Positions 3,701-57,700 of a stretch of 64,000 nucleotides of DNA are shown in pieces. Each line of letters begins with the position of its first letter. Within the stretch, counting starts at the first letter, position 1. The stretch covers positions 15,004,001 to 15,068,000 of the forward strand of contig CDPCPM010000037.1 in the NCBI GenBank assembly GCA_976551045.1, read 5' to 3'. The translations under genes were made by a program, and so were the position numbers. Source of the DNA: Glaucostegus cemiculus (lineage: Eukaryota). A model generated the notes under the pieces. That model did no database searches and was not told where the DNA came from. It worked only from the letters and a program-made list of their open reading frames with translations.

Positions 3701-6700
3701 TAATTCTTGGTAATTATTTTATTATTGTCACATGTACCAAGATACAGTGAAAACTTTTGTTTTGCATGCTGTCCATACAGATCATTTCAATGTTCACAGC
3801 TTGGTAAACTACATCATAAAAACAAATAAAACACATTTAACACAGGGGCAGTATATAGAACTTTACAAACAAATTGGAAAATTTTTGCATTTAAATTTGG
3901 AATCATGTTAAGTGCCATGGGGGGGGTGCAGTAGGAGGTGCATTTTTGGATTAAAACCAAATTAATAATTACCAATCAGATCAGACACATCTTAAAGCTG
4001 AACGTAAATACATTTTCAGCTGCTCTTAAGCTTGGAAAGATTAGAGTGAATCCTTAGCAGTGAATGGAAAAGAGAAATCAACCAGGGTGGCTCATGAGAA
4101 AGCAATCCATTGCTTTGTGACATCATGAGGATCAACTTCAAACCTTACATCCAATTATTTTGCCCATTGCTAATTTTTAAAGTCATTGAAAGTACTTCTT
4201 CAAAATCCAAAGATATTGCACTGTGGTAGAAAGCCTAAAGCATATGATAATTGCACAAGTCAAACACAGGGCAAAATCTCAATACTTGAAAATCATTAAC
4301 TCCTTTTTATATAGTTTAAGTCACTAATATGTGGTTTGAGTGTTACTGACTTTCCCTTGCAAATATTAAACACTTACAATGATTTAATATTACAAACAAG
4401 GGAAATAAACAATTTGCCCCCAACAGAGAGCAAAAACATGGTAATTTATAGAATTAATTCTACTCATGGAGCTTCAAGTCCTTCAACTCAAACTCATCTA
4501 ATCAGAATTCTGTCTTTATCCAGTTTCCTTTTTGTCCTTATTAGAGAACTGAGTTGGTCCAATGATGAAGCTAATGTTTCTGCATAAACCTGTTTCCTAC
4601 ATCTTATTGCCAAATCATTCCCAGCTTTTTGCACCGACTACTGCATATAGATAATTTTAGGTATTAATGCATTATGTGATGCTTTTCATGATAACAGTAC
4701 TAAACCTGCCATTATCCTGATTGCCCTGCAGTCTAAGTTAAATCCCAATAAGTGTCTACAGTTTTTTTTAAATTACTTCACATTTATCTGCAAGGCCTTT
4801 CTCGGTGCTGACCAAGTGTATTAAGCTTTTTGAAAGAGTAACACTTTCATATATGAAAGACCTTAAGTCTGTTTTAGAACCTCAGCAACTGTTCGACCGC
4901 CAGTCAATCAGACTGAAGGAAATGAAGGAAAAGCAGCAGCCAATTTGAGCAGAACAAGTCCCATAAGCAACAATGTTATAAATGACCAGATAATTAACTG
5001 TTTTAATAGAAAATTTTGGTTGTGGTGTTACAAATAGACAAGAAAACCATAGATGATTGTTGTTCTTCACTTCAAAATAAAGCCATGGAAAATTCTTCAC
5101 AGAATGTAGATGTGGAGATTCAGTTTAACATCTCAATCCTTTCAAACAAAAAACACCACCAAATTGACAACAATTTCTTTAAAAAAATGATTCTCCTTGT
5201 AATATTTCATGAATCATACTCTGTTCAATGAGGTGACTGAGTTTTTGATGGTGTACTCAGCCATAATTATCTTTCAACATCTGCCTAGCCCTGAAAACCA
5301 ATTACTTAACAATTCCAATTTCATGATTCCATGTCAGGTTTGTTAAAATAATGTCCATGAAACTTCATCTTCAACCATAATCATCACTATGTCTATTTCC
5401 CAATCTTCATTGTGCCCTTTGTAATGCATTTAAATAGTTAAAATTAGAGGTTTTACTTCCAGGTTAACTGTCTTATGTAAGTGTACAGTGTGTCTGGCAA
5501 CTCAGTTAACTCATTACTGGACATTACATAACCACCTATATATCTTGCCATCACAAGGAAGATGTAGCAGCAACTTTACTTTCTTGGAAGGTTAAGGAGG
5601 TTAGACATGTCACTGAACGCTAACAAACTTCTACAGATGCAACAGTATCCTGACTGGTTGCATCATGGTCTGGCATGGCAATTCAAATGTGCAGGAACAC
5701 AAGAAGCTGCAGAGAGTAGTAGACTCAGCCCAATACATCACTGGCACATCCCTCCCCAAAATCGGATGCATCTACAGGTGGCACTGCCTCAAGAAGGCAA
5801 CATCAAAGCTCCCCACTATCCAGGCCATGCCATATTCTCGCAGCGACCATTGGGCAGGAAGCACAGAAGCCTGAAGTCCACCACCACCAGGTTCAAGAAC
5901 AGCTTCAACCATTTGGCTCTTGAATCAACCTACACAACCCTAATGACCATCTCAGTATGGTAACACTATGACCACTTTGCACTACAATGGACTTTTGTTG
6001 TAATTGTGTTTTTTCTTGTACAACTTATGTTTTTCTTCTGAATGTTGTGTATCTGATGAGATATGCTAGTGATGTTGCTGCAAGCAAGGTTTTCATTGCA
6101 CCTGTGCATATGACTTTAAATTTGACTTTGACTTGATAATTGATGGCCAAATGAAAACAACATCAGAAGTGGCAACATCTACATCCCAGGTACTGCTAGG
6201 TCTTGGGAGGCTGCTATTGGGATCTGCAACAAGCACCACTTTGCCAAAAAAAAATGAAGCTTTTATGGGTTTAAAAGCTCAAATCTTTAAAAAAAAATTA
6301 CCATTAACTTTAAAATTTAGTTCTTTGTATATGGTCACTTCCATGTTTAAGAGAGGAAGGAGCAGAAAATTAAAAATAGAATACGGAGGAGGAAAACTGA
6401 AATTCAGAGTAAATTGAAATGATTACTGAAACTTGCAAGAGAACATTATACACAAGACTGACAGTTACTAATTAGATCCAAGCTTTGCAAAAGTTAAAGT
6501 TAGATTCATAAACTTGCAAACATTCTTAAGTCACATGAGGGAAGTTTGAAAATTGTGGGGACTGGGGTTGGAATTAACTTTAACCAATTTAACAACTTAT
6601 TAGCATGAATCTTTGAAGATTTTTTTTTAGAAAGTTTCATTGTGGGCAGGGGCTCCGGGGTCAATTGCTGTCCAACAGTCTTCTGCTGTTCAGTGTATGT

Positions 6701-12700: not shown

Positions 12701-15700
12701 AAGAGATTTTCTTTGTAAACCAACAGCATGCAATTGCAAATTTAAGTTTAGCAAGTGCACTCTCTTTGTTTAAACAAACTTAACAGAAACAGCATAGATC
12801 TCTGCTGTGTTTTAAAATAGTAAACTCTCAAGCTATGCATACTTGCAGTAGAAGGCAAGAGGACAAAGAAATGCATCTGGAAGCAATTATCTAAAGTTCA
12901 CTTACAACCATGATACTTGCCATAAACAAATGATTTCAGACAAACAGCTGACTTACATTTTGGTTGCTGATGCAAAGTTTATTTTTGAACAGTAGTACCC
13001 AGAATTATCCACAAGTAGTCCTTCTCTTAAACATGAGGTCATTAGGAAATTGGATGAAATAAGATACACTGGCAATTTGGAGGGTAACAGTGGAATGATG
13101 GTGTCTAAGAATAAATTCTAAATAAGTAACTAAAATCACCAAGGTATCCCAAAGCTATTTAAAAACTGATCATTAACCTTGACCAATTAACTTCACAGGA
13201 TTTCTATAATTTCTGAGCACGTCACATGAGAAAAGATGAAGCAAGTTTGGTTTTAGATTGCTGCTTCATTATTTGCGATTGCCCTTCCAAAAGATAGTGT
13301 AGAATCAGATTACATCTGACAGCGTCTCTTTTGCATTATGTTTACAAATGGCATAAATATTCTGTAAAACAGCAGCCAAAAACACAATTGAGCTTGCTGC
13401 ATTGTGGTTAAGCTGAAGTTCATTTATTCCCCAAGTAGATTGAGCACAGCAAAGTCTCCACGTGTGCAGATGCTTAGGGTCATCTCGGACCAAATACAAG
13501 TTAACAGCATTTTTTAAAAATAAAATACAAATGCCTCTACAAAATGCAGAAACACATCATTATAGGCTCTTGTGTTGTTTCACACCCCTAACAATTTCCA
13601 GATGCAGGGCATACCATTGGAAGCTCCTGACCAGAAGAGACAAGATGGAAAATATGCTGTTATCCTGGACTCCACAGAAACCTTAATTAGGATGACAAAA
13701 ATGGTTCTGCTTTCCCATTCTTTTAGGAGTGACCAAATGAGTAATCTGTGTGCAGTTTGGAAAAAAGTTCTAATACTTAAAACTTCCAATGTATTATAAA
13801 GTACACCTTAGCTCCAAGATCAGACTGGAAACAGGTAAAGTGAACGTTCACCAGCCTTCAACTTTTCCTACTTACAGTTTAGTAAGTAGTAGCACCAAAT
13901 TAGAACTATGAACTGGCCTGCGAGTACTGCATATCTGTGGTTTTCAGAATATATTCACTTGTAGGTCTGATCACAAAATTATAGGAAATTATGATACCAC
14001 AAAAATGCAAGAAAACAGAGCAGTTCATCTGGTCATTTTTGGATGTAATCTTCTTGTATCCATTTGATATTTGCCTCTGCCCCACCATGATGATGGGCAG
14101 TCCACTGTTCCCAGCTGGTAACCACCTAGTATCTGAACATTTACTGAAAATTATGCAGAGTTTGCAGATGAGCAACTACATGAGAGTGGTGGAAGATAAA
14201 AATCAATTCCTCCAGCAATCAATGTCTCTTTCTCACTGTAAACAGGAAAACTGTTTACACAAGAATAACAGCATATGCCTTTAAACCTACTTTAGCAGTA
14301 AAACCTCAATTGGCAGCCATTGAATTTCCCTCCACCTTCAACATTCCCCTCAAATTTGTCTCACAAGAAAATGTTGAACAAACTAGGCTCATGTCTTGTC
14401 AGAGTTCAGAAGTATGCAAGGACAGTTGATGGAAACATAAAAGACCTTGAGGAGTCTTGGCAATATGGACATGGAGAGCATGCTTCTGCTGGTAGAAGCG
14501 CAAATCAGGATTAACTGTTTAAAAATAAAGTGGCTACCTCTTCAAGACAGATGAGGTGAAATTTTTCCTCAGGGTTACACATTTTCAGAACTCCCAAAGG
14601 ACTATTGGGAGCAGAGTCTTTGACTGTTTTTTTTTAAGGCCAGGATAGATTCTTGATAAGCAACGGGTGAGAGGTTACCATGGGCAGACAGAAATCCAGA
14701 CTTGAGGTTACAATCACATTAGCCATGATCTCATTGAATGTGGGAGCGGGCTTTGAATCAGCTTCAAATTCATATATGACTCAAAAAATGTTTCCAGCAG
14801 ACGTTAGAGGATTTCTGGGACCTCTCCACTGTCTACTTCCAAAGCAGAGTTGACATCTTATCTATCAACAGGTGGTACTTATACCAAGATTCCCTCCAGA
14901 ATCTATACCAAGATTCTGGAGGGACTTCTGGAAGTCCCTCCAGAAGATAGTTAGGGCTGCGGAGTGGATCATAGGTGTCTCGCTTCCATCCCTCGCAGAC
15001 ATATACAAAGACCGTTGTGTGAGGAAGACCAAAAGCATAAATGGCCGACCCTTCTCACCCCTCCCACCACCTCTTCACAATTTTGCCATCAGGGAGGAGG
15101 CTTAAATGTATCAGGGCAAGAACGACCAGGCTGAACAATAGCTTCTTTCCGCAAGCCATCAGAACTGCAAACTCTCTCATCCCTCCATCTTCCTTTGTTA
15201 ACACTAAGAGATACTAGGTGCACAGAAATGCACCAGCACTTTAAATGCCCAACACCAGCCCGTTCACTTTAAGAACTATTTATTTATTTACCGGCCATTT
15301 TTAATTTAATCTGCGCATTAATTTAATTTTAACTTCCGTAGTTTTTAATGTTTAATGTTTTTTAATGTTTATTCTGTCAAGTGTGTATGTGTGTCTCTGT
15401 TGGTTGTTATTTTATGGGACGAGCACCTGAGGAAGACGGTATCTCACTCCTATGCATACTATGTATGTATATGGTTGTGACAATAAAACTGATTCTGATT
15501 CTGAAGATTCCAATGTGAAAAGAAGATCATAGCAAGTTAGAAGAAAACATTTATCGTTACCCGAGCTATTTCTTACCTGTACTAGAAGCCAATCAATCAA
15601 TTTGCTTGCTGGCACCACAGACTTGTATGTCTTCAAATGGTGATCTCGGTCTCTAAATTTAAAAATAAATTTGCTTATAAATATTGGCAGTGTAACTGAA

Positions 15701-18700
15701 ATTATTGAACTAAGTTCAAAAGTACTTGAACTCATTATGTACAAGATGTAACTATTCACCTCGCATTGACATAAAAAACAAGCAATTTAGAACTTAACAG
15801 CAAATGTCAATAGATGCACTAAAAGAATGGACTGTTATGTCAATGAAAGATAAAGTTCTCAAGAAACCCAAGATCCGCAGTCCTGTAAAATCTCTTGCGT
15901 GCTTTTCATGCTTGCAAAAAATCTATCCCAACGAAACTTAAGCGTTAGGTCCAATCTACAAGATCCTTTTGGGGAACTTGAGTACTATTCAAAAGTGCAG
16001 AGCCATCACTGCCAAATCTCTGTTTCTCAGCAGAACTAAAAAAGTTTGCTTTCGATGGGAAAAAGAATTTACAGTAATGTCAATAGTGGACCAGTAATAG
16101 TCACCTCTTCCGTCTTCAACACAATTGGTGAAGAGTGGCCACAACATATAATGTACGCTTTAGTCAGAAACAAGCAGTGTATCTAAAGTGCCTTATGTCT
16201 GCTCAGTCCTAACTAATTATGCTGTTACTTTACTGTAATCAGGATTAATACCAGATGCTTTCTCTCAAACTGTTCCAACACTTATAACAATTATAAAAAT
16301 CAATGCTTATTAAAGAATGAAAATAATCCATGCATGTGAAAATTGGACAGGAAATTAGATACACCGTCATTAGATAAAGTCTTGAGCAACATTAGACCTA
16401 TAAACTGTTGAAGAACAATGTTTGAGTACTGTAACCTTAACAAAAACGATAGGTAGCACAGTGAATTAGCTGTGATAAGTAGTTGGAATAATATCATTTA
16501 ACTGCTTGCAAAAAAAATCAGCTGGAGGAACTCTGTGGGTCTCGCAACATCTGTGGAGGGAAGTGGATGGCTGACATTCCAGGTTGAGACCTTTGATCTG
16601 AACTGAAAGAGAAAAGGGGAGATGGCCTGAATAAAGAGGTGAGAGGGAGGGGTGAGGCAATATCTGGCAAGACGTAGGTGGGTCCAGGTGAGGAGGAATT
16701 GATGGACAAATCAACCCCTCCCTCAGCTGGATCCACCTATGGCTTGCTGGCATTTGCCCACCCCTCTACGCTTTATACTGTCCATCTCCCCTCTGTTTTT
16801 TCAGTCCTGATGAAGGGTCTCGACCCAGAACGTCAATTGTCCGGTTCCCTCCACGGTTGCTGTGGAGGGAATCATACATAATGACAATCATACATTCACT
16901 CAGCCTTATCCCTCCATGACATTAAAAGAGAAATAAAACACAACTCACTTTACCACTGGCGTGAAGAGGCAGTGTAATCGACAGTACAACCTTATGCCCT
17001 GTCAAGAGGAAAAAAAAATCCTGAAAAACTTTAGCATTATGTCACTTAAAGTGTACACCCTTCATCCAAGATGAGCCAGTGGACCAATTCAAGTCACTCT
17101 CCACATCACATGCGATCAGAATTGGCTAAGTAACCCAAATTGAACAGAATGCATTTAGGGTAATGGAGTAGTACCTTAGATAAAATGTCTTCCATCTCAC
17201 TTCTGGGTTTGTAGGTTCCATCATCATACCGAAACCTGTAGAGTACCATCTCATTTTTGAAATGGTGTTTGTCTGAAACTGAAACATGAAAATATCCATT
17301 AGAGAAGCCAGGACTAGGATACTGTCTTTGACCCATTAATTCTAAAATAACTTTCAACCTTAACTGCCATCTTACGAAGGCTGCTAAGTTCTTGGTAGTA
17401 CTCAACAAATTTTGATAGATACAAAACTTGCCATGCTCTTCCCCCTTTCCAACCCACACCCCACCACCACATAAAAAATTATAACTTGACAACATGAAGT
17501 GAGAGGTGATGGGTTTTAATTGGAACAATGAGGAGGCTGCTTACTGCTCACATAATTAGAGTTCTAATGGATTAATGAAGCCAAGGGATCCAAGGGCACA
17601 CACAGACTTGTGGCAGATACTACTGAGGCTTTTGAAAAGAACAGACCAAGTGCAATGTTTTATTTCTAGAGGAACAGAGTTAAAAACGGAAGTTTGTTAA
17701 ACTTCTATGGAAGCTTGGTTAAACCACATTCGGAACACTGTAAAATGCTGCTCTGCATACAAGGTGCAAAATATAGAAGAACTGGAGGTGGTGCAATAAG
17801 GTTTCAAAAAGGAGAAGTACAAAACAGAGAACTGACTCAGGCTGAGATTTTTCACTCTGGAAAAGCAGAAGACAAGGACTGAAATATTCAATATCTCTGA
17901 AATATTATGGAGAGGGTTGAAAACAATATAAATATTTCCATTATGGGGGTCCAAAATGAGAAGACATTAACTCAAGGTAGACACTGATAAGTCCAATAGG
18001 AACTCAGGAAAAACTTCTGTTCAAAGAGCGACAACAATATTTTGCACATTCCCCCATGAGCAATCGAGATGAAAAGTACACACTTAAGTAGGAGCAAAGG
18101 AAGCACATGAAATAATGGGACTTGGTGCTGGTTTGGTTTTAACTTAGCTGGAGACAGCTTGTGTGGAACCTAAAAGCCAGAAATGACTAGTTGAGCTCAA
18201 TGAATATCATTTCAAAATATACTTCATAAGATATTCAAAAGTATGTTATCCAGAATGTTTACACCAATATCTTCATAGCAGGTTAATTCATTCCCCTGAT
18301 TTAACATATCATCTGTTATCATTTTCACACAATTTAAAAGCAAACATTCACAGCGTAGTAAAAGATTTCAACCAACATCTATGCAATGGCTTTTAAAGAA
18401 TTAAGTTATATAACAGTTTATATTTGTTAACTATAAATATTAAGTGCATCCATGAACCTTGTTTTTTCTGATTCAGATCAGTCAAGATCTCAATGAAGAC
18501 CAGTTCAAGCTTGCAGTACAACCAACTCCAGTTCCCTTACAGCCACATGAACAAGGTCATCCATCATGCAGGGATGCACAACCACCAAACTAAATAGGAT
18601 ATACTAAAACATGTTGTAACTGAAACCTAGAGATTCATGAGAAACAGCAGGTCAAGAACAACCAAAATTGCACTTCATAATCTGCAACCTACTGGTGTTC

Positions 18701-24700: not shown

Positions 24701-27700
24701 AGCAAGGCTTGACCCAGATTCACTCCTTCTTCGGCTTTACTGATCTCCCCTATTTCCATCAGCCAGGAAACAAATTCACTGGAAACAGAATATTAAACAG
24801 AAATTTCAGTTCGTATACACCACAAAACAAACCATTGTCTCTAAATAGTCTAATTAGCACTGTTTACTGAAAAAAAATACAAAAACTTTAGTCTGAATCT
24901 TGATCTTCTGAAAACCAGCAAAAAATCTTCCAGAAACGTCAAGGAATTATCACAACAAATATTATAGTACATTATTCTTTAAAAGAAAATATCCTTAATT
25001 AAATGTCAAGCTGCTGTAGAGAGAAAGCAAGATTTTTGTTTTAAGCTGCATATTCATTTCCTGATACTAGCTGCCATCTAAAGTACACAAATCCAAGAGT
25101 TACTTTGGCACAATTCATAAGCTCCAACAAGTGCCTAATTATGAAACTGGGCTTCTAGATTGAATTTGACCTGTAGCCAGGCAGCAGCCTTTTCAATAGC
25201 CAGAAAAAAAACCAGGTTTTCCATCAACTCAAATATCACTCCTATATACCCAGCTGCCAATAACCAACAAGAATTCCAATCATATATAAACTAAATGCAA
25301 ACAATTCAGATTGTCATATTTAATGTTTCATGAAACATCCTTTCAGCATTGCTGCAATTAATACAAACTAAATAGAGGCATTTAAAATTAAAATGGGAAT
25401 TGGTCTTTATTACCAGTGTTATTATACAGAAGATACTGTCACTGATGTAATAAAGCTGAGGATATACCATATTTAGCTAACATCAAAACAAGATGTTTGC
25501 ATTGTAACCATTGGTAGTATCTACAGCTGGTGCTGCCTCAAGAAGGCAACATCCATCAAAGATCCCCACCATTGGGGCCATGCCATCTTTTCGCAGCTAC
25601 CATCAGACAGGAGGTGCAGAAGCCTGAAGTCCCACACCACCAGGTTCCAGAAGCTACTTCCCTTTAACCATTCAGTTCTTGGACCAACCAGCAAAACCTG
25701 AATCGCTACATTCTCACAACACCATGACCAATTTGATCACTTTGCACTGAAATGGACTTTGTTTTATTCATTGTAATTGTGTTCATTTTTGTAAAACTTG
25801 TGTGTAATTTGTGTTTAATTTATGCTTTTTCTTGTGAATGCTGCTTATATGATGCCGTGTGCCTGTGATATTGCGTCAAGTAATTTTTTTCATTGCACCT
25901 GTGTACATGACAATAAACTTGACTTTCACTTTGCTGGATTGTTTAATATACTTGTGTTACTTTTAGAAGGAGCAGCAGCTTGTATTCACCTGTAGGCAAA
26001 GCAATTGAAACCCACATCCATTTTTTCATTATCTTGATGCAAGAGATCATTAATTAAGAGCAAGGGTGACTGCAAACTGCAAGGGTACCAGCTACATAAT
26101 TCTATTAATTTATATTAGCAGCATTGGTCATTCAATTCTTTGAACATTTTCTCAAATAAAATTGAAAGATACCTTGACAATTAGTACCAGAAAAAAGCAA
26201 AATTTCTGAGCACTCATTTCAAGTTCCTGCAAAATAATTAGATCACTGTTGATGCAATTCCAAGTGTATTTTCCACTTGTGCAAAAGACGACCATAACTT
26301 GCTATCTACAGTGACTACAAGGGATCATTCATACATTGAATTCAAACGCTATTGGCAGGATACTCTCTATGCAACATGTACTTTTCAAAGCAAATACAGA
26401 AAACAAATTACCATATTCAGCAGAACACATGCATTCAAAAGCAAGTTGAATTTATGATGCCATTTGTCTGTAATCATTGCACAAGTATAATTTACAATGG
26501 AATGTAGTGGGATTAATGAAAGTTAAGGTAACACACAAGCTGTGTGCATAATAAACATTAAAAACAGATGTATTTATCTTACATTTATTTGTGTTCACTT
26601 CAATTTTTAAATTTTGGAAAATTCATTCAGCACCCATTTAAAACAAAAACTTGATTAATTACTGTTACTTAAATAACATGAGGACCCACAAAGTCTATCT
26701 GATTTGGCAAATAATATTAAAGTCTACAGGAAATCCAATGTTTAGCTTTTCTAGTTACATGAATAGGGCATGAAAATTGATGAGGCCTTACTTGCCAAAA
26801 AAGCACTTAGGGACTATAGACAACTTTCTCCTCCTGTCCTTGATAAGATTTGCTTTCTTGTTCATCATCATGTGGTAGAGTTTCTCTCCTTTCTCCGAGA
26901 TCATGACATACGCATCACGCTCCATGCCCAATTTCAGACCTAAAGAATGAAGTTGAGAGATATGCAAGAAATTCATAGAAAATTCTTGGAAGTATTCTGC
27001 TGCATGCATTACTTGAAACTAAAAGCACAACTATTTGAATTAAACCAAATTAAGCTGTTTAGTGCTGCTTTGTCCATGAAGGCACACCAACATTGAACAT
27101 ACTCTCACAGGGGCTAGGTAAAAAATCACAAGCGAAATGGAGGGTGAAGCTCCCCTTGCACTTCCAGATTTGTCATTCAAACAACAAACTATACTTTACC
27201 CACACAATTATACACACGAAAAAATTGTCATTAAAATGTGGCTTTTCAAACAAACCCAGGTGGATCCTCTTCATGACTGTGGCCTCCAAAGTATGAGATG
27301 CTAAGGTTTTCTCTGACTTTAAATGACATACAGGATCTGACAGCTACATCATGAAAATACAAGGGCAGCAAGAAAAAGACAAGGAGAGACTGCAGATGCT
27401 GGAAATCTGGAGCAACACACACGAAATGCTGAAGGAACTTAGCGGGTCCTGATGAAGGGTTTCAGCCCGAACTTCAACTGTTCATTTTCCTCCAGAGGTG
27501 CTGCTTGACCTACTGAGTTCCTCCAGCATTTTGTGTGCGTGAAGCTAGAAAAAGTCAGCTTTGAAATTTTTCAGCAGAACCTGAAGTGAGCTTTTTGCTG
27601 TCAACTAATCATGATATGGAGCAGTGAACTCAACTGTTCAAAACATCAATGATCCTTAGAACAGGCTCCAAGTACATTCCCATTAAAACTGGCAATAATA

Positions 27701-30700: not shown

Positions 30701-33700
30701 AAATGTCACTGAAACTCATCCCAAGCTTCTGCTAAATCTTTAGATATTGCACAGAACTTATGTCGATATAAACCATTCTACTAGCATCAAATTGAACACT
30801 GACAGATGCATTCTGTAGATTGCCTTTCCAGTGCCATCCTGCTCCTTAATTCAGTGTTCAGTCTTGCTTACCATTTCACACCCCATTATCACTCTGTACA
30901 CATGAAGGCTTTCAGCAAAGACCATGAGCATCATGCTTCTGATTTTGTCCTTCTATCTGTAAAACATTGAGATAAAAGCCTCTGCTTTATAACTCCATCT
31001 TTGATCTTCAAGTTTCTACGTTCCTCCTGGATTTTAACAGCTTTTCCAAATTTTCATTTCTGCTTTCAGTTGTCCTGTTTGCACCTCGTGCTATCATTCA
31101 TCATTCACAGTGCCCTACATGCAGCAAATTAAGATCTTCATGACATTGAAAAAAGTGCAATTTAAATCAAAGTTACCATTGGTGCACATTCAGGACATCT
31201 ATACCATCTTCTGAATACATCATTGATAACTTTGCAGAGCTTATTCTCTGTTCAACATACACATACCCAGCTAAACAGTTCAACATGTTCACAACTCTAA
31301 GTGACTGCTGCATTTAAACAGTCACAGATGCAAAATAAAATACAAGCTATCAAGAAAAAGGAACTTCATTTTCAAAGATCAACCAAGGTTAACACATTAC
31401 TCAGACAGAAAGCTGTGCAAGCTCTAAACTATTTCAAGCACTATTGACAAATTCACCATGCAATTCACTTCATGCACATAAGAATGCAGCATTTCAGCCA
31501 CTCTTACAGCAGGTTAACTTCCATGTGGATAGCTTCCCATTACAAAAAGAGCCCCTGGTTTAATACATCACATCAAATATTTCAACTCATTTTACTGGAT
31601 ATTGTTTCCTACCTCTGACCACATCAAGTTGGTAGGCCGATGTTTGATGTCATGAAAATACATAATTAATTCTCATTACAAATGTCATGGCTTAGTTTTG
31701 AACATTTGCACAAGTCTATTAAATTCCCAAATACTCGAAAGTTTGTGGTCTGAAAGCACTGTAGGTGCTGGCGGTGAGGGTGGCGGAGGGATGGGGGGGT
31801 AGATAAAGAAATGGGCTAACACAGTGAACACATTCACAACTTCACGCATTTCCAATAATTTTGCAAGACCTGCAGGCCATTCACTTTTGTTAGTTCCCCT
31901 CCCTAGGGGAATTCAAAAACTATTCACAAAGGCATACAGCATGCTTGAAAATTAAAATGCAAAGCAAAAGCTGAGGAATATTATACTGGTCTTGATTGAA
32001 GTTTCCTGGAGTAATATGCTAATTGTTCAATATGGAACTGCTGATTCCCCAGGATTGCTTTCCAAGTGAGACACTTCAGTTTTATAGAACGAGGTGCTAA
32101 GTTAATGAAAATTCTCTTCAGTGTCTGGTCAGCTACTTTTGGTTTCAGTCCTCAACCCATTTCTCTTCAATCAAACAACATTAATGCAGATTATCTGGTC
32201 AATTTGTCTCATTGGCATGTGCAGAATGAATATATTCATTAATGTTCCTGTTATACATTTCATCAATTTGTTGTCAAGTAATTTTGATTGTTCCTTGGGT
32301 CTGAAATTCACTGCATAAATGCATTCAATTGTTGAGCAAATAAACTTAGAGCAACAAAAAGAGAAAATATTAATATTTTCAGTCAAACTGAAAGCTTTTC
32401 CCCAAGTCAAAGAGGCACAGCTATATCCAGAGCTCTTCAGACATATTGAGAAGCTCATTTTGATGATGGGATCAGGTGCAATATGCACAATTTACTGATG
32501 ACAGAATTCTAGATGGCAGTGTGGGCATCAAGGAGATTGCAGATGCCCTTCAGAGGGATTTTGACAGGTATAGAGCCATAGAGTTACACAGAACAAAAAC
32601 AGGCCCTTCAGTCCAACTCATCCATGATTACCAAGATACCCATTTACCTATCCAAATATCTTTTAAATATTGTAATTGTACCTTCGTCTACAGCTTCCTC
32701 TAGCAGCTCATTCCACGTACCCACCACCCTGTGACAAAGTTGCCCCTCACGTCCTTTTTAAATCATTCCCCGATCACCTTAAATTTATGTCCTCTAGTTT
32801 TAGACTCCCTGGGAAAAAGACTGACCTCCACCTTATCCATATCCTTTATAATTTTATATACCACATCCTTAAGAACTAGCAATTCAAGTGGCAGATGGGA
32901 TTGGAGGTGGAATAATGCCCTGCAGAATGTTGTAGAACAGAGACAGAGACATTCAGGTGTACAAGTACAGAGTTTCCTGAGAGTGGCAGCGCAGGTGGAC
33001 AGGGTAGTGAAGGTGATATTTGGCACACTCGCCTTCATCGGTGAGGGCACAGAGTTCCAGAGTTGGGTCATCTCTTTACAGCTGTACAAGGCGTGGGTGA
33101 GACTGCATCCAAAATATCGCATGCAGTTCTGGTTGCCAGCTATAGAAAGGATACCATTAAGCTGGAAACTGTGCAGTAAAGATTCTCAAGAATGTCACCA
33201 GGACTGAAGGGCATGTGTTATAAGGTGAGACTGGATAGGCTGGAGCATAGGAGGCTGAGATGTGACCTTACGGAGGTAAATAAAATCAAGAGGGGCATAG
33301 ATGGGAATCTAAAACTAGAGGTCATAGATTTAAGGGGAAAGATTTAAAGGGGACACAAGAGGCAAATTCCCTCATTCAAATCGTCAGTCTTTTTCCTCCT
33401 CTGAAAACTAGGAGGACATAAATTTAAGGTGATAGGGGAATGATTTAAAAAGGACCTGAGGGGCAACTTTGTCGCACAAGGGTGGTGGGTATATGGAATG
33501 AGCTGCCAGAGGAAGTGGTAGAGGCAGGTACAATTAAATGTTTAAACAACATTTAGACAGGGACATGGCTAGGAAAGGTTCAGAGGAATATGGGCCAAAC
33601 CACAGGCAAAAGAGACTAGCTCAGCTAGATACCTTGTTTGGCATGGACGAGATGGGCTGAGGGGCCTGTTTCCATGACTCTACACTCTACAACTATGACT

Positions 33701-39700: not shown

Positions 39701-42700
39701 CTGGAGCAAGTAGAATTGTCCAATTAACTTATTTTTTTTCCTTGCATTAATAGCAACTGAAAGGAACTTTCAAGAGGAAGCATATAATTGAATTTTCTCA
39801 ACCATAATCCTCAGCTAAACACCAACTTGCAATTTTTATATTTGGAAGATAAGGAAGAATGTGGCTAAGTTGCAAAATCCTCAGTCCCCTCTGAGTAAAC
39901 CCTGAAAATGGTACAACTAATTGCAGTATTTAAAAAAAAACCTGTGATATTTTAAATAATTTTGTTATCAATCCCGAAATCCTTCTGGAGAAAAAGAAGA
40001 TAAACAGATGGCCAAGACAACATTGTATTCTGCAGTTCCATTAAACAGGAAAGAATCACAGGCCTATATTGCATACTGTATGTATCTAAGACAATGGCCT
40101 GAATGTAAATATGGCATATACACGAGTTTTTAAACTATGAGCCACGCTGTGCATGCTACATATTAACATATGAATCTTCAGTTTCTCTTTTTCCAGTTAT
40201 GTCTTTTTAATTCATGAAACTTCAAGCTAATGACATAATAAACTTGTCAAAGGTCGTAATACTTAGTATTATGCTTCACCATTGTGACGACACTTTGCAA
40301 ATTTGAGCTCATCTAAAATGCTGCTGCCTACATCCCAAAACCTGTTCACTTATCACCCAAGATCTTGATCAGATAATACCTCAAATTCTAAAATTTGATA
40401 CTAATTTTCAAATCCTTCCAAGGCCTCACTTATTTCACCTCATGAATTGCAGCTTTCACTACTTCACCTTTAGCTATTGAGGTTTCAGTTGTTAAATTGT
40501 ACTGCATATCCTTTGTGAAGTGGGATGGCACAGCAAGACAGTGTTGCCATAGCACGGCTACAGCAGCTCAGGTTTAATCCTGACCACCAGTGCTGTGGTA
40601 TTTGCCATCTGCATGTTCTCTATGAACTGTGTAGATTTCCATTTGGTGTTCTAGTTCCCTCCCACATCCCAAAAATGTGCAGGTTGGTACAATACTTAGC
40701 CACGGTAAACTGCCCCTAGTGTGTAGTCGAATGAAAGAATCTGGAAGGAGTTGATGAGAACATGGAAAGAATAAAATGACTCCTTGATGGTCAGCAGAAC
40801 TGAAGGGCCAAATGGTCTGCTTCTGTTCTATGCAACTCTATGACAGGCAAATTACTGATGTTCTTTGCACCCGAGCACATTGCTCTTCTGCTTTTCCAAC
40901 TTACTCTACACCTTTAAAATGTTCCTTGAAATCCATCTCTCAGTACTTCTACAATATTTTATGTGGCTCAGTGATGACAATGCACAAAGAACTCTGAAGT
41001 GTTTTATGATTGGGACACCATACACATTAATGTAATCTTTGATTAATACATCTCACCACTTCTCATTTTTTCTTATACTTCATTTTTCTTGAGAAATGAG
41101 CTCATTATCTGGTTTTGATATGTTTCAATGCTATTCAATTTCAATTTGCCAGGAATAGAATAAGAGGGCTACATAACATTCTTATTATTTGAGAGGAAAA
41201 CTGAAATTCCAAAGGTTGTCAAATTTCTGTTGGCCTTAACACTTCTTGAAAGGCATGGGTTAATAAAAATAGCATCAATTACTATAGATTTGGGACCACA
41301 TCAAACCTCACTGCATTAAATTAATAAAACAATCAGGGCTTCAAATTTTCAGCTTTTGTTAGTTTTACTTTTTGCTGATCATCATATACCATGTATTTGG
41401 TCATTTGAAAGTATATTCAATTTTTAGCTTCTATAATAATTAAGTATTGATATCATTAACAATAATACCTGCACATTCAAAGGCAGTAACTGCTACCTCA
41501 TTTTTAATATCCTCGGCTCTACCCCCCCCACCCCAAGTTATTCCAACTGTGTCACTGATCAGTATATTCTAATATGACATGATGATAAACAAATGCATTG
41601 TCCATTACCCATGTATAATAGATGCATTTTGAAGGCAATACTGCTAAAATAAATGCTTAATTGATATTTCAAAATGTATTTTACACCAATAAAACTGGGT
41701 TCAGGCAAAAATTCATCTTTTGGATGAATTGTTTCCAGTTATTATTTGTTAAGCCTGAAGCAATCATCAACTGAAAGCAGTGGCTTCCACATGGTGTGTG
41801 ACTAAGTGAATCTGGTCAGCCTCAAAATACTCAGCATGATATTTTGCTGTCTGGTACTTATTCAAGACATTAGGCACTTCCTCCAGTCAGACAGTTACAT
41901 CATTTTTGCAGATGCTGCTAAGCAAAGGAACCAGCTGAAACATCAAAGGATTCCATTGTTTTGACAACAGAACATGAACAGCAGGATTAATAACTTTTCA
42001 GAAATAACTTCTACAAAAGCAAGGTACAAGTGCATTCACCTTGCTACTTTAAGACTGCATATTAATAACACATTGGCCCATGACAGTGCTGCACCTCAGG
42101 AATGTTGGGGAAGAACAACATTGAATATCAAGCTGATAGTAATATATAGCTAAAATTAATGTATTTAAGGTGCTGAAAGTTAAACATTTCCAAAGATAGT
42201 TTGAATTAGCAAGACAATGGCCAAGACAGTGGATGGAATCAAGTTAGTGACAGGGGAGTAGAACTAATGGCATTGCTCTCTGGGAACTGACATGGACCTA
42301 CAAGAGACTCAGATGCTCTAAACTGGAGCAAAATAAATTGTTGGAGGAACTCAGTGGGTCAGGCAGCATCTGTGAAGGCAAAGGGATGGTCAATATTTCA
42401 GGTCCTGATGCAGGATCTTGACCCAAAACGTCAACCTCCACAGATGCTACCTGACCCAATGGGTTCCTCTAGCAGTTTGTTTTATGGACCCTGTGGACCC
42501 AGTAGCATCTTTCTGGATCATTAAAAGAAATTTCTTCATTAAATCTACTTTAAAAAAAAAAGTGTTTTTTGTTTGGTATATGGTGAAATCCATCAGACGA
42601 GGCAGCAAGGACAGGACTTGCAAAAAGAAACTCTCATCCTGTCAGCCTAATTGTAGAGTTTTCACTAGAGCAACTGCACGTATTGAGTTTTTGTTCGGGA

Positions 42701-54700: not shown

Positions 54701-57700
54701 AGTGGTGTACCACAGGGAACCATGATAGTTCCTTTTCAGTTTGTTATATACATGAATGAGTTTGACGCAAATGTAGGGAGTATGATTAGTATGTTTGCAG
54801 ATGTCTGAAATTGATGGCAGTGTTGATAGTGATACTTCTCCAGTAGCCTTAGGCTACATGACGCCATCAATCACCTCTGAACTTGGGCAGGGCAGCAGCA
54901 GCAGCAGATGGAACAAACTGATAAGTGCAAGATGATTTTTTTTTTTGCAGGGGTGGGGTGTCAAATAAGGGTAGGACATGTATCATGAATGATGGGTCTT
55001 AGGTGTCAAATCCAAAGATCATAACAGATGGACTTAGTGGTAAAGAAAGCACATGGGATGCTTGCCTTCATTATCTGGGGCAAAGAATATAACAGCAGAG
55101 AGGTTTTGGTACAACTTTATAAAACACTAGTTAGGCCACTGCAGGAATATTGCGTTAAGTTCTGGCCACCACACTGTAGGAAGGACACGATTATGTAGTA
55201 GAGTGTGCAGAGAAGATTCACCAGAATGTTGCTTGGGATAGAATGTTTTAGTTATGAGGAGACACTGGATAGGCTGGGCTTATTTTCCTTGGAGCAGAGC
55301 AAGGCAAGGTTTGAACTGACAGAGGTATGCAAAATTATGAGAGCATGGATTGGGGAGGTAATAAGAAACATTTTCCAATGGCAAAGTCGTCTAAGAAAAG
55401 AGCGCAGGCTTAAAGTGAAAGGATGAAGCTTAAAGGAGATCCAAGGAAGAATTTTTTCACCCAGAGGGTGGTTGCAATCTGGAATGCACTGCCGGAGAAG
55501 GTGATGGAAGCAGAAGCTCTCACAACATTTAAGAAGCATCTGGATAAGCATTGGAATTGCCAGGGCATAGTAGACTGCAGACTGATAAATAGGATTAATA
55601 CAAATAGATATTTTGTCAGCCTGGACATGGTGGACCAAAGGGCTTTCACTGTGCTCAGTGGTTCTATGACTATTTGTTCACTTCATGGATCAAAAGAACT
55701 AACGCAAATTGCAGGCACAAAATTATTTTCCAAGAGTCTGACTCCTCATAAAGTAACCATGTTTTTCCAATGTGTCAAGTTAAAATAATCCCTCAGTCAG
55801 ATTATCTGACATGTCTGGAGGACAGCATCAGGTGAGCTCCTGGGAAGACAGTGAATTGTTATGTAATACATTTCACGTCAGGGATAAACGAACAAAAAAT
55901 TTCTTGGGGTCTTCTGTCCCGATTCCCACTCAAGCTTTTATTTTCATGTCTGAATAAAGACAATATTCCACTCAATGTGAACATAGTACCCAATGACTAA
56001 CTATTACCTCAACTGATCAAAGCAAAGCACGAGAATCATGATCAAACTAACTGCTTATGGAAAAGTACTATTGGTTCATAGCCTCTGTGTCACGAGGACC
56101 ACAGGTTCTTGTTCCACTCTGGAGATCAGAGAACAAATATGCCAATAATTCAATCCAATTGGGAGGAAAAGATCTATTCCTGGAGGCTCAATCTTTTAGA
56201 TAAAATGTTAAACAAAGCCACCATCTGCCTTTTCAGATGACTTCACAAAGATCCCCAAAGTCAACTTGAATAGCAATTGTTCTTTCTTGTTATCCATCCC
56301 ACCTATGCTCCAACCACCAATGCTTAACTCATTGCTTAGTGCAACTTTTTACTGCTGACTTGACAGAAGTGACAGCATTTCAGAAACAATTCATGAGCTC
56401 CAGGTTAGTCTTTGGTAACATCAGAACACACTAAAGCATTTTACAGTTAAAGTCATGTGAAAAATGCACAAGGTCCCACAAAAAAGATGAAAAAATGAAC
56501 AAATTGTCAATTTGATGGTTCTAAGGGTTACAGATAGGCTGGAATTCATGGAGAACGCTAACTATTGTTTGAACACAGCTGTGAGACCTTTAATAGTCAC
56601 CTGAATGGGCCTCTATTTTAATGGATGCAAGTTGTCATTTTCCCTTTAGGGATGGCATAATGTCACAAAATTAGTGACTGCAGCCTTGTTTCAAACCACT
56701 GAGGTGAATGTTGATTATACAGCACGATTCTGTGGGGTTGCTGGTGGCTGGCTCAGAAAGAGTATTCAAAGCTCTTTGGGAAAATACAAGTCTAATCAGT
56801 TCAAAATTTACCAAGGAGAAACAACTTTTCTCCTCAACAGTTGTGCTTCTCAATGTGGATTTCAACATCTCAGATTTTCAAGATGTTACAAAAACATTCA
56901 TATGTTGAAATGGCAGAGAACTTTCTGGTTTCACTAACCAAATAACAGCTTTTGCAGATTCCCAAAGTCTAAATTCAGAACAGAAAAAAAAGAACTGCCA
57001 CATCTATGGGACTGAAGTCAAATTCAAAGAAAAATGAAATACCAATGAACTCTACTCACAAACTGAAGGAAGGTATTTCCAAGTTCATGTTGAGGTTGTG
57101 GTTCTGGTTGTAAACGGCACTCAAGAGCTTCAAGGAACATCATGTGGACATCAAGTATCTCTTCAATATTAGAAAACAAAATCTGAAAAAAAGAGCAGAA
57201 CCACAACCAGAAAATAAATCATGTTAAGCCATCAATCTGCTTTCAGGTGCATTCAGGAGAACACAAATTCATGAACAAACATTAAAGTACAGAGAAGCAT
57301 ATAATAATCCACCCCACTTCCTAGATTTGAAAGCCATTGGGAACAGCTGTAAAAGCTGGGAAGAACGCTCATCACACTGAGGAATGAAGAATCAACAACC
57401 ACAACTTGGGTCTGCTCCAAAAAAAGTACAAAATTCCTTGATTTTAAACCAAATCTTAATCACTCATTTTCATTGGGTATGTGCTCCTGATTTTACAGGT
57501 AAACCAGAATTAAACTTATTTATGATTATTATTGCCCCATTTCATGGTAATAGGAATGGGCAGAATTGTAACATTGCACAGAATTGTAAAGTTGCTGCAC
57601 ATAATCAAGATCACTACTTCAAACCATTCTGGCAAATGCTTCAGGAAACCTGACACCTCTCTATAAAGGAGCAAAGGGAGAAAGAAAAGGACAAGCACAG

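What the first reader, a model, noticed from the sequence alone, without database searches (positions are those of the whole stretch)
16802..16839. Minimal hammerhead ribozyme motif in a Penelope-type terminus (best of three copies)
Seen: cagt-c-CTGATGA-a-gggtc-tc-gaccc-agaac-GTC-a-attg. This gives helix I (cagt/attg), the CUGAUGA core, helix II (gggtc/gaccc), a mutated GAAA, a self-complementary ACGT helix III and a GUC cleavage triplet. Established: Penelope-like retroelements carry minimal type I hammerheads with a palindromic helix III, proposed to act as dimers. Inference: this genome hosts an abundant hammerhead-bearing family. This copy has AGAA in place of GAAA, so it is probably inactive.
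Basis: partly seen in the sequence, partly recalled or inferred. Interest (0 to 1): 0.7.

Follow-up and report, generated by a model that had tools for sequence, protein, structure and literature searches.

The report
Dead Penelope hammerhead; altered-core sister lineages
This is a worn, likely inactive copy of the small self-cutting RNA motif that Penelope-type jumping genes are known to carry, lying backwards in an intron of what is likely a shark or ray; it is ordinary, except that its nearest relatives likely spread with a changed catalytic letter.

Summary
The motif is real. It lies in the 3' pseudo-LTR of a very abundant Penelope-like element (RT, CX4CX2C linker, GIY-YIG, so Neptune-type). 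Copies picked by their endonuclease, not by the motif, give a majority with a complete minimal hammerhead core about 370 nt after the ORF. 8,277 genomic places keep the core, against 98 in the control. This copy is almost certainly dead: G12 is A, A13 is G, and the helix I pair next to the core is a C-A mismatch. It is the right arm of a 5'-to-5' inverted pair, the usual Penelope insertion form, and lies antisense in an intron of a P-Rex-like gene. The scan has reported this same family several times, in this genome and in others. One extra: two lineages amplified with a changed core, U4-to-A (2,205 places) and A9-to-C (2,390), against 169 for a neutral control change. This insertion falls in the U4A clade, so its canonical CUGA may be a back-mutation. 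Verdict: new member of a known kind, low interest.

The parts
16802..16839 (+). Decayed minimal type I hammerhead: helix I 5' strand 16802-16806, CUGAUGA 16807-16813, extra A 16814, helix II 16815-16818 with 16823-16826 (loop 16819-16822), positions 12-13 broken at 16827-16828, ACGU palindrome 16830-16833, C17 at 16834, helix I 3' strand 16835-16839 with a mismatch at 16835
16709..16862 (+). Right arm: 5'-truncated 3' pseudo-LTR of the Penelope-like element, about 16% diverged from its subfamily majority, 3' end lost about 25 nt after the motif
16507..16711 (-). Left arm: inverted 5'-truncated pseudo-LTR copy joined 5'-to-5' to the right arm near 16710, about 19% diverged, ending without the tail extension
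16568..16605 (-). Hammerhead remnant of the left arm, sense to the host pre-mRNA; A at position 4, C at position 8, further changes; no intact core
16838..16878 (.). Short fold-back at the broken right end (17-nt arms, 82% complementary); a remnant of a further inverted piece or a later local rearrangement (inferred)
   Evidence: I4
27410..27538 (+). Second family copy with an inverted stub; CUGAUGA present, GAAA box and palindrome broken
42328..42483 (.). Third insertion, a short inverted pair; the + arm carries C at position 9, the second altered-core lineage
15576..15652 (-). Host exon (DEP domain, P-Rex1/2-like); closes the 1.3-kb intron that holds the element
16949..16997 (-). Host exon upstream of the intron holding the element (spliced reads in 2 of 3 runs)
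17174..17279 (-). Next host exon upstream

Best explanation
The motif is a decayed, likely non-cleaving copy of the minimal type I hammerhead in the 3' pseudo-LTR of an abundant Penelope-like retrotransposon, likely of the Neptune clade, and it lies as one arm of an inverted pair antisense in a host intron. Mechanism. Shown: parent elements have the order pLTR, RT, CX4CX2C linker, GIY-YIG endonuclease, pLTR, with the motif on the ORF strand. Inferred from the literature: the element's protein nicked DNA and reverse-transcribed the RNA from just downstream of the motif. Inferred: two opposed, early-terminating copies left two stumps of about 150-200 nt joined at their 5' ends. Inferred: in active masters the motif folds as a double hammerhead, two ACGU palindromes pairing as helix III, and cuts after C17, probably with help from the element's protein. 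Shown: after insertion the copies decay like neutral DNA, fastest at the four CpG sites, which include G12, the palindrome and the cleavage site. This copy lost G12, A13 and the 1.1-2.1 pair. It has no role at this locus (inferred).
For: ORF linkage: 28 of 30 endonuclease-picked loci have the pLTR flank downstream on the same strand, 26 of them 331-392 nt after the stop; one of the 28 is the query locus itself. Of 12 RT-picked loci, 10 show the endonuclease, 9 a same-strand pLTR after it and 4 an inverted pLTR before the RT. The RT relative P0001 passes Pfam RVT_1; the genome's own 382-aa frame hits it below the cut-off. Motifs in 50 endonuclease-picked loci: CX4CX2C 22, xIY-CxxC-YIG 34, HFN...H 38. 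Core: complete majority; counts 8,277 vs 98 and 1,531 vs 98. Helices were not fixed by the search patterns yet pair in 77% of cells against 17-41% when slid; the core-closing pair is C-G in 22 and U-A in 18 of 53 rows. Inverted geometry: 19 of 31 neighbour pairs are 5'-to-5', 2 are 3'-to-3'; 26 of 36 tight pairs have the tail on one arm only (p=0.005). Neutral decay: core 0.90 (0.93 without CpG), flank 0.93, CpG sites 0.71; 0 of 106 sampled copies keep the strict core and 7 a loose one. This copy; G12A slows cleavage more than 500-fold in minimal and about 10^6-fold in full-length hammerheads (PMC2553840, passages). Antisense intronic position.
Against: No cleavage was measured. Covariation rests on one pair and probably one event between subfamilies; two of the shuffle measures were not exceeded (202/500 and 70/500). 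Rfam does not recognise the motif. Pfam gives no GIY-YIG hit on the endonuclease fragments, so that domain is called from motifs. The Neptune label rests on the linker motif, not on an RT tree, and Nematis also has a linker finger. No intact ORF was found, but only 68 of 46,170 candidates were scored. The double-hammerhead fold is not the predicted minimum even for an intact copy (-19.3 vs -34.9 kcal/mol). The tail cut-off was chosen after seeing the data and that set includes motif-picked loci. No target-site duplication was found, as the right end is damaged.
Confidence: 0.92

Rival explanations
1. The canonical CUGA box of this copy is not inherited. The insertion came from the lineage whose master had A at position 4, and the right arm mutated back or was converted, so the copy was never a canonical hammerhead. 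This refines the best explanation rather than replacing it.
For: The left arm of the same insertion has A4; 20 of the 29 closest relatives have A4. Both arms carry the clade's diagnostic letters (scores 0.84 and 0.88). In that clade 35 of 55 copies have A4, 11 have C9 without A4, 8 are canonical and 1 has G4. With positions 4 and 9 masked both arms fit the A4 group best (right arm -90.8 vs -94.1).
Against: Canonical copies make up 8 of 55 in the clade, more than back-mutation alone would give, so a canonical sister lineage likely exists. The classifier assigns 12 of 33 canonical copies to the A4 group. The relatives were picked by likeness to the left arm. Arms of neighbouring inverted copies disagree at position 4 in 7 of 24 cases, several of them far enough apart to be separate insertions.
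Confidence: 0.6
2. The copy is a working ribozyme variant that cuts the host pre-mRNA or an antisense RNA.
For: It lies in an intron of an expressed gene and keeps CUGAUGA, helix II, the palindrome and GUC.
Against: It is on the strand opposite to the spliced RNA. G12, A13 and the 1.1-2.1 pair are lost. AGAA occurs at near-control frequency (139 vs 93). In the full fold-back the motif pairs with its own antisense arm. Reads over it fit only in part and carry letters of other copies, the flanking intron has no depth, and no read ends pile up.
Confidence: 0.02
3. It is an independent short non-autonomous element (a fold-back SINE- or MITE-like unit, or a non-LTR retrozyme) rather than a stump of the full element.
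For: Most genomic copies are short, and 39 of 94 sampled copies begin close to the front edge of the motif. Retrozymes are proposed to derive from pLTRs (10.64898/2026.07.22.740005).
Against: Copies extend upstream by continuously varying lengths into the endonuclease and RT. Close relatives of this insertion have the endonuclease upstream at the usual distance. Junctions of inverted pairs differ from copy to copy. There is no tandem array here.
Confidence: 0.05
4. Chance match to a loose pattern.
For: The CTGATGA box is at chance level in the window and Rfam finds nothing.
Confidence: 0.01

Closest known systems
Minimal hammerheads (min-HHR) in pLTRs of metazoan Penelope-like elements (Cervera and de la Pena 2014, PMC4209133; parts 1-2 of 4 read)
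   Same: [quoted passage not shown]
   Different: Helix II is only 4 bp plus loop (7-8 bp in Schistosoma). Cartilaginous fishes are not named in the parts read. The core variant reported there is U3-A8; U4-to-A and A9-to-C lineages are not mentioned in the parts read. Its supplementary alignments were not seen and may hold them.
Neptune clade of endonuclease-positive Penelope-like elements (Craig et al., 10.1101/2021.04.23.441226; passages read)
   Same: C-terminal GIY-YIG with two cysteines between GIY and YIG, CX2-5CxxC linker, DKG motif in the close relative P0001, 5' truncation, adjacent inverted 5'-truncated copy, 30-40-bp tail on one end.
   Different: Clade not confirmed by an RT tree; microsatellite targeting not tested.
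Poseidon element PAc of Anolis (Frangieh et al. 2024, PMC11167929; parts 1-2 of 4 read)
   Same: Hammerhead in the pLTR; genomic 3' ends lie downstream of the cleavage site, with two end positions; no read ends at the cleavage site in RNA-seq.
   Different: PAc is a Poseidon and was assayed: its hammerhead cuts only with protein, and cleavage was not needed for insertion in vitro. Nothing was assayed here.
Non-LTR retrozymes (Li, Clavereau, Pollet 2026, 10.64898/2026.07.22.740005; parts 1-3 of 5 read)
   Same: Type I hammerhead, pLTR-related, found in one chondrichthyan genome.
   Different: Defined as tandem repeats with a motif in each unit; this locus is an inverted pair, not a tandem.

Membership tests
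PLE minimal hammerhead (family level) | Core C3 U4 G5 A6 N7 G8 A9 ... G12 A13 A14 A15.1 ... U16.1 H17 | tested here: met
   Majority of 28 endonuclease-picked copies; 8,277 vs 98
PLE minimal hammerhead (family level) | Helices I and II with compensatory change | tested here: met
   77% paired vs 17-41% slid; pair 2.1-1.1 C-G 22, U-A 18 of 53; only this pair covaries strongly
PLE minimal hammerhead (family level) | Extra nucleotide after A9, palindromic 15.1-16.1, no loop 3 | tested here: met
PLE minimal hammerhead (family level) | Located in the pLTR of an RT/GIY-YIG element, same strand | tested here: met
PLE minimal hammerhead (family level) | Self-cleavage as a dimer or with protein | not testable with these tools
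   No assay; RNA-seq shows no pile of read ends, a weak test
Functional hammerhead (this copy) | Intact core and paired 1.1-2.1, 10.1-11.1, 15.1-16.1 (rejection criteria of PMC3088659, passage) | tested here: not met
   G12 is A, A13 is G, 1.1-2.1 is C-A
Rfam hammerhead families | Score at a hammerhead model | tested here: not met
   No hit in the window or in 4 loci, two of them core-intact family copies
EN+ Penelope-like element | Single ORF with RT followed by GIY-YIG with CCHH | tested here: met
   Broken copies show the order and motifs; RVT_1; Pfam GIY-YIG not hit
EN+ Penelope-like element | Inverted 5'-truncated copy and one-sided 30-40-bp tail | tested here: met
   19 of 31 pairs 5'-to-5'; 26 of 36 one-sided tail
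Neptune clade | CX2-5CxxC linker between RT and endonuclease | tested here: met
   22 of 50 loci; examples
Neptune clade | Placement in an RT tree | not tested
   No reference PLE set was on hand
Non-LTR retrozyme | Tandem units each with a complete motif | tested here: not met
   Inverted pair, no intact core in the window

The most novel reading that the evidence does not exclude
Two lineages of this Penelope-like element, one with U4 changed to A and one with A9 changed to C, each spread to about a fifth of all copies while still linked to the coding region. If these cores are dead, the genome records a natural experiment showing that hammerhead cleavage is dispensable for Penelope retrotransposition in vivo. 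If they cut, they are two natural core variants not found in the papers read. This insertion belongs to the U4A clade.
Probability: 0.55. Interest if true: 0.45.

Novelty: new member of a known kind. Interest (0 to 1): 0.22.

Why it matters
The copy itself does not matter: it is one of roughly half a million decayed ends (177 per Mb in a 600-kb sample; a rough extrapolation). The role of the hammerhead in Penelope-like elements is an open question (stated in 10.1101/2021.04.23.441226), and in vitro it was not needed for insertion (PMC11167929). The family offers a cheap test: canonical, U4A and A9C lineages can be assayed side by side. If the altered cores do not cut, cleavage was not needed for at least two large bursts of transposition.

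Tried and rejected
Rfam scans found no hammerhead. Pfam gave no GIY-YIG hit on fragments. ADAR-type editing of the hairpin (a lead from e1-9141068): A-to-G on the + strand 11 and on the - strand 3, expected 9.2 and 7.6, p=0.11; not supported. AGAA as a family variant: rejected. Cleavage-defined 5' ends: only 3 of 94 sampled copies start within +25 to +34 of U4, where the cleavage site lies; rejected (profile ends are fuzzy). Target-site duplication: none seen by eye. Intact autonomous ORF: none among 71 listed matches, a shallow search. Run search: no RNA holder listed. Family-wide read laying gave thousands of reads on both strands and no place where many molecules begin or end; fragmented libraries make this a weak test. 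The majority print-out was mis-indexed and was redone. Loci L031-L060 were picked by a perfect motif and were not used to judge conservation of the motif. Literature searches for a U4A natural variant (no hammerhead paper holds the term), for Penelope elements in cartilaginous fishes and for pLTR/Neptune/hammerhead showed no description of these lineages; the library lacks most subscription journals and Repbase/Dfam were not available.

Full report
Observation. The 38 letters are at 16802-16839 as described. The box CTGATGA is not enriched in the window (17 vs 13.5) and Rfam reports no hammerhead. Self-comparison shows that the motif lies in the right arm of an imperfect palindrome, about 16507-16862, made of two opposed copies of one repeat, with further copies near 27446 and 42396. 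The window lies in a 2.85-Gb genome in which the element has at least 4,664 candidates. A close RT relative comes from a bamboo shark, so the host is likely a cartilaginous fish.

Parent element. Upstream of intact motifs lies a broken frame ending in a GIY-YIG-type endonuclease. That fragment has 53,931 candidates in the genome, of which 150 were scored. Of the 30 best loci, 28 have the repeat's 3' flank downstream on the same strand, 26 of them 331-392 nt after the stop. Longer copies reach into an RT with YIDD and MG(T/S) motifs and a CX4CX2C linker. Among 12 RT-picked loci, L263 has direct pLTRs around the ORF and four have an inverted pLTR before it. These features match the description of canonical endonuclease-positive Penelope-like elements, and the linker points to Neptune (passages of 10.1101/2021.04.23.441226). 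No tree was built. Every ORF match was broken or partial.

Family hammerhead. The 28 endonuclease-picked copies, 27 of them chosen without regard to the motif, give a majority with the full core, an extra A after position 9, a 4-bp helix II, the ACGU palindrome without loop 3, C17 and a 5-bp helix I. This is the min-HHR of PMC4209133. Whole-genome counts of the core, with helices left free, are 8,277 for 13-nt spacing and 1,531 for 14-nt spacing, each against 98. I aligned the window copy with 52 of the 60 loci from these two searches; I left out six near-duplicates, one chance match and one shifted register. The helices pair in 77.4% of cells, against 75.0% after shuffling and 17-41% after sliding. 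The core-closing pair is C-G in 22 rows and U-A in 18. That is one compensatory change between subfamilies, so the evidence for selection on structure is real but thin.

This copy. Against natural copy L043 it has A for G12, G for A13, A for G1.1 and U for C1.3. G12 is the general base; G12A costs more than 500-fold in minimal and about 10^6-fold in full-length ribozymes (PMC2553840). The double-hammerhead fold scores -8.3 kcal/mol here and -19.3 for L043. AGAA is not a lineage (139 vs 93). Two of the four changes are at CpG sites. The motif holds four CpGs, and these decay fastest (0.71 conserved against 0.93 for other core and flank sites). Only 6 of 28 endonuclease-picked copies keep the core and adjacent pairs, and 0 of 106 copies in 60 sampled stretches keep the strict core (8 of the stretches adjoin the window).

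Setting. The arms are 16% and 19% from their subfamily majority and 25% from each other. The 5'-to-5' form is the commonest neighbour arrangement (19 of 31), and the tail is one-sided in 26 of 36 tight pairs. RNA reads in two of three runs splice 16949 to 15652 and 17174 to 16997 on the minus strand. The joined exons read as a P-Rex-like DEP region. The motif is therefore antisense in a 1.3-kb intron; the sense-strand remnant in the left arm is more damaged. No reads specific to this copy and no pile of read ends were seen.

Altered-core lineages. Twenty of the 29 closest relatives have A at position 4. Genome-wide, the core with A4 occurs 2,205 times (control 122) and with C9 2,390 times (control 9); a comparable neutral change, T at position 6, occurs 169 times (control 128). 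In the random sample A4 is in 11 of 50 copies and C9 in 11 of 58, while A6 is kept in 49 of 53. On a tree with position 4 masked the A4 label needs 20 changes against at least 36 when shuffled; kin share labels, so this shows only that A4 is largely inherited. A4 copies L012, L027 and L277 and C9 copies L017, L029, L308 and L322 have the endonuclease upstream on the same strand, so both lineages were tied to the coding region. Whether these cores cut is unknown. A natural U4C variant lowers activity strongly yet supports a viroid (PMC3088659, passage); U4A and A9C are not among the variants in the section read.

How it works. Shown: structure of the parent, position and strand of the motif, inverted form, neutral decay. 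Taken from PMC11167929 for a different clade: reverse transcription starts inside the RNA downstream of the hammerhead, two start sites give the tail, the hammerhead cuts only with the protein, and cleavage was not needed for insertion. This fits the copies here, which run 60-95 nt past C17 and seldom start at it. Inferred: this insertion arose from two opposed, early-terminating copies and has been inert since.

Verdict. A dead copy of a known motif in a known class of element, new only as to host and family. The scan has reported this family repeatedly, once with a note of a shared core change. Interest 0.22; the altered-core lineages would merit about 0.45 if assays bear them out.

Noticed in passing
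G000:C4 about 8,700-119,000 (loci L209-L220); related copies on C1 (L191-L204): A separate hammerhead family with different helices (helix I UUCCC/GGGAA, helix II GCUC/GAGC, 6-nt loop, same ACGU palindrome, GUU triplet) sits in a long tandem array of 1.1-1.35-kb units with near-identical motifs near a contig end. The 15-nt-spacing pattern has 10,553 matches against 127, and this family made up nearly all of the 100 listed. It looks like a young non-LTR retrozyme or satellite with an intact core; units also hold 18-, 23- and 111-bp sub-repeats. A better candidate for activity than this finding. Copies spaced about 70-85 kb apart on C1 carry a G-G mismatch at the first helix II pair.
   Followed up: partly
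genome-wide; window 42396-42440: A9-to-C lineage: 2,390 core matches against 9 control; helix I often only 3 bp.
   Followed up: partly
genome-wide: 5' ends of short copies cluster at the front edge of helix I (39 of 94 within -15 to +4 of U4), and RNA reads show many loose ends at that place, not at the cleavage site.
   Followed up: partly
window 15576-17279, minus strand: Three spliced exons of a P-Rex1/2-like gene; reads differ from the assembly at 4 exon places in all covering reads, likely alleles or another strain.
   Followed up: partly
window 5568-5963, 32704-33207, 55414-55788: Frames that look like LINE (CR1/L2-type) remnants; the label is recalled, not tested.
   Followed up: no
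window 16621-16788 and 42338-42475: Weak Rfam microRNA hits far below gathering score are the inverted Penelope arms.
   Followed up: yes
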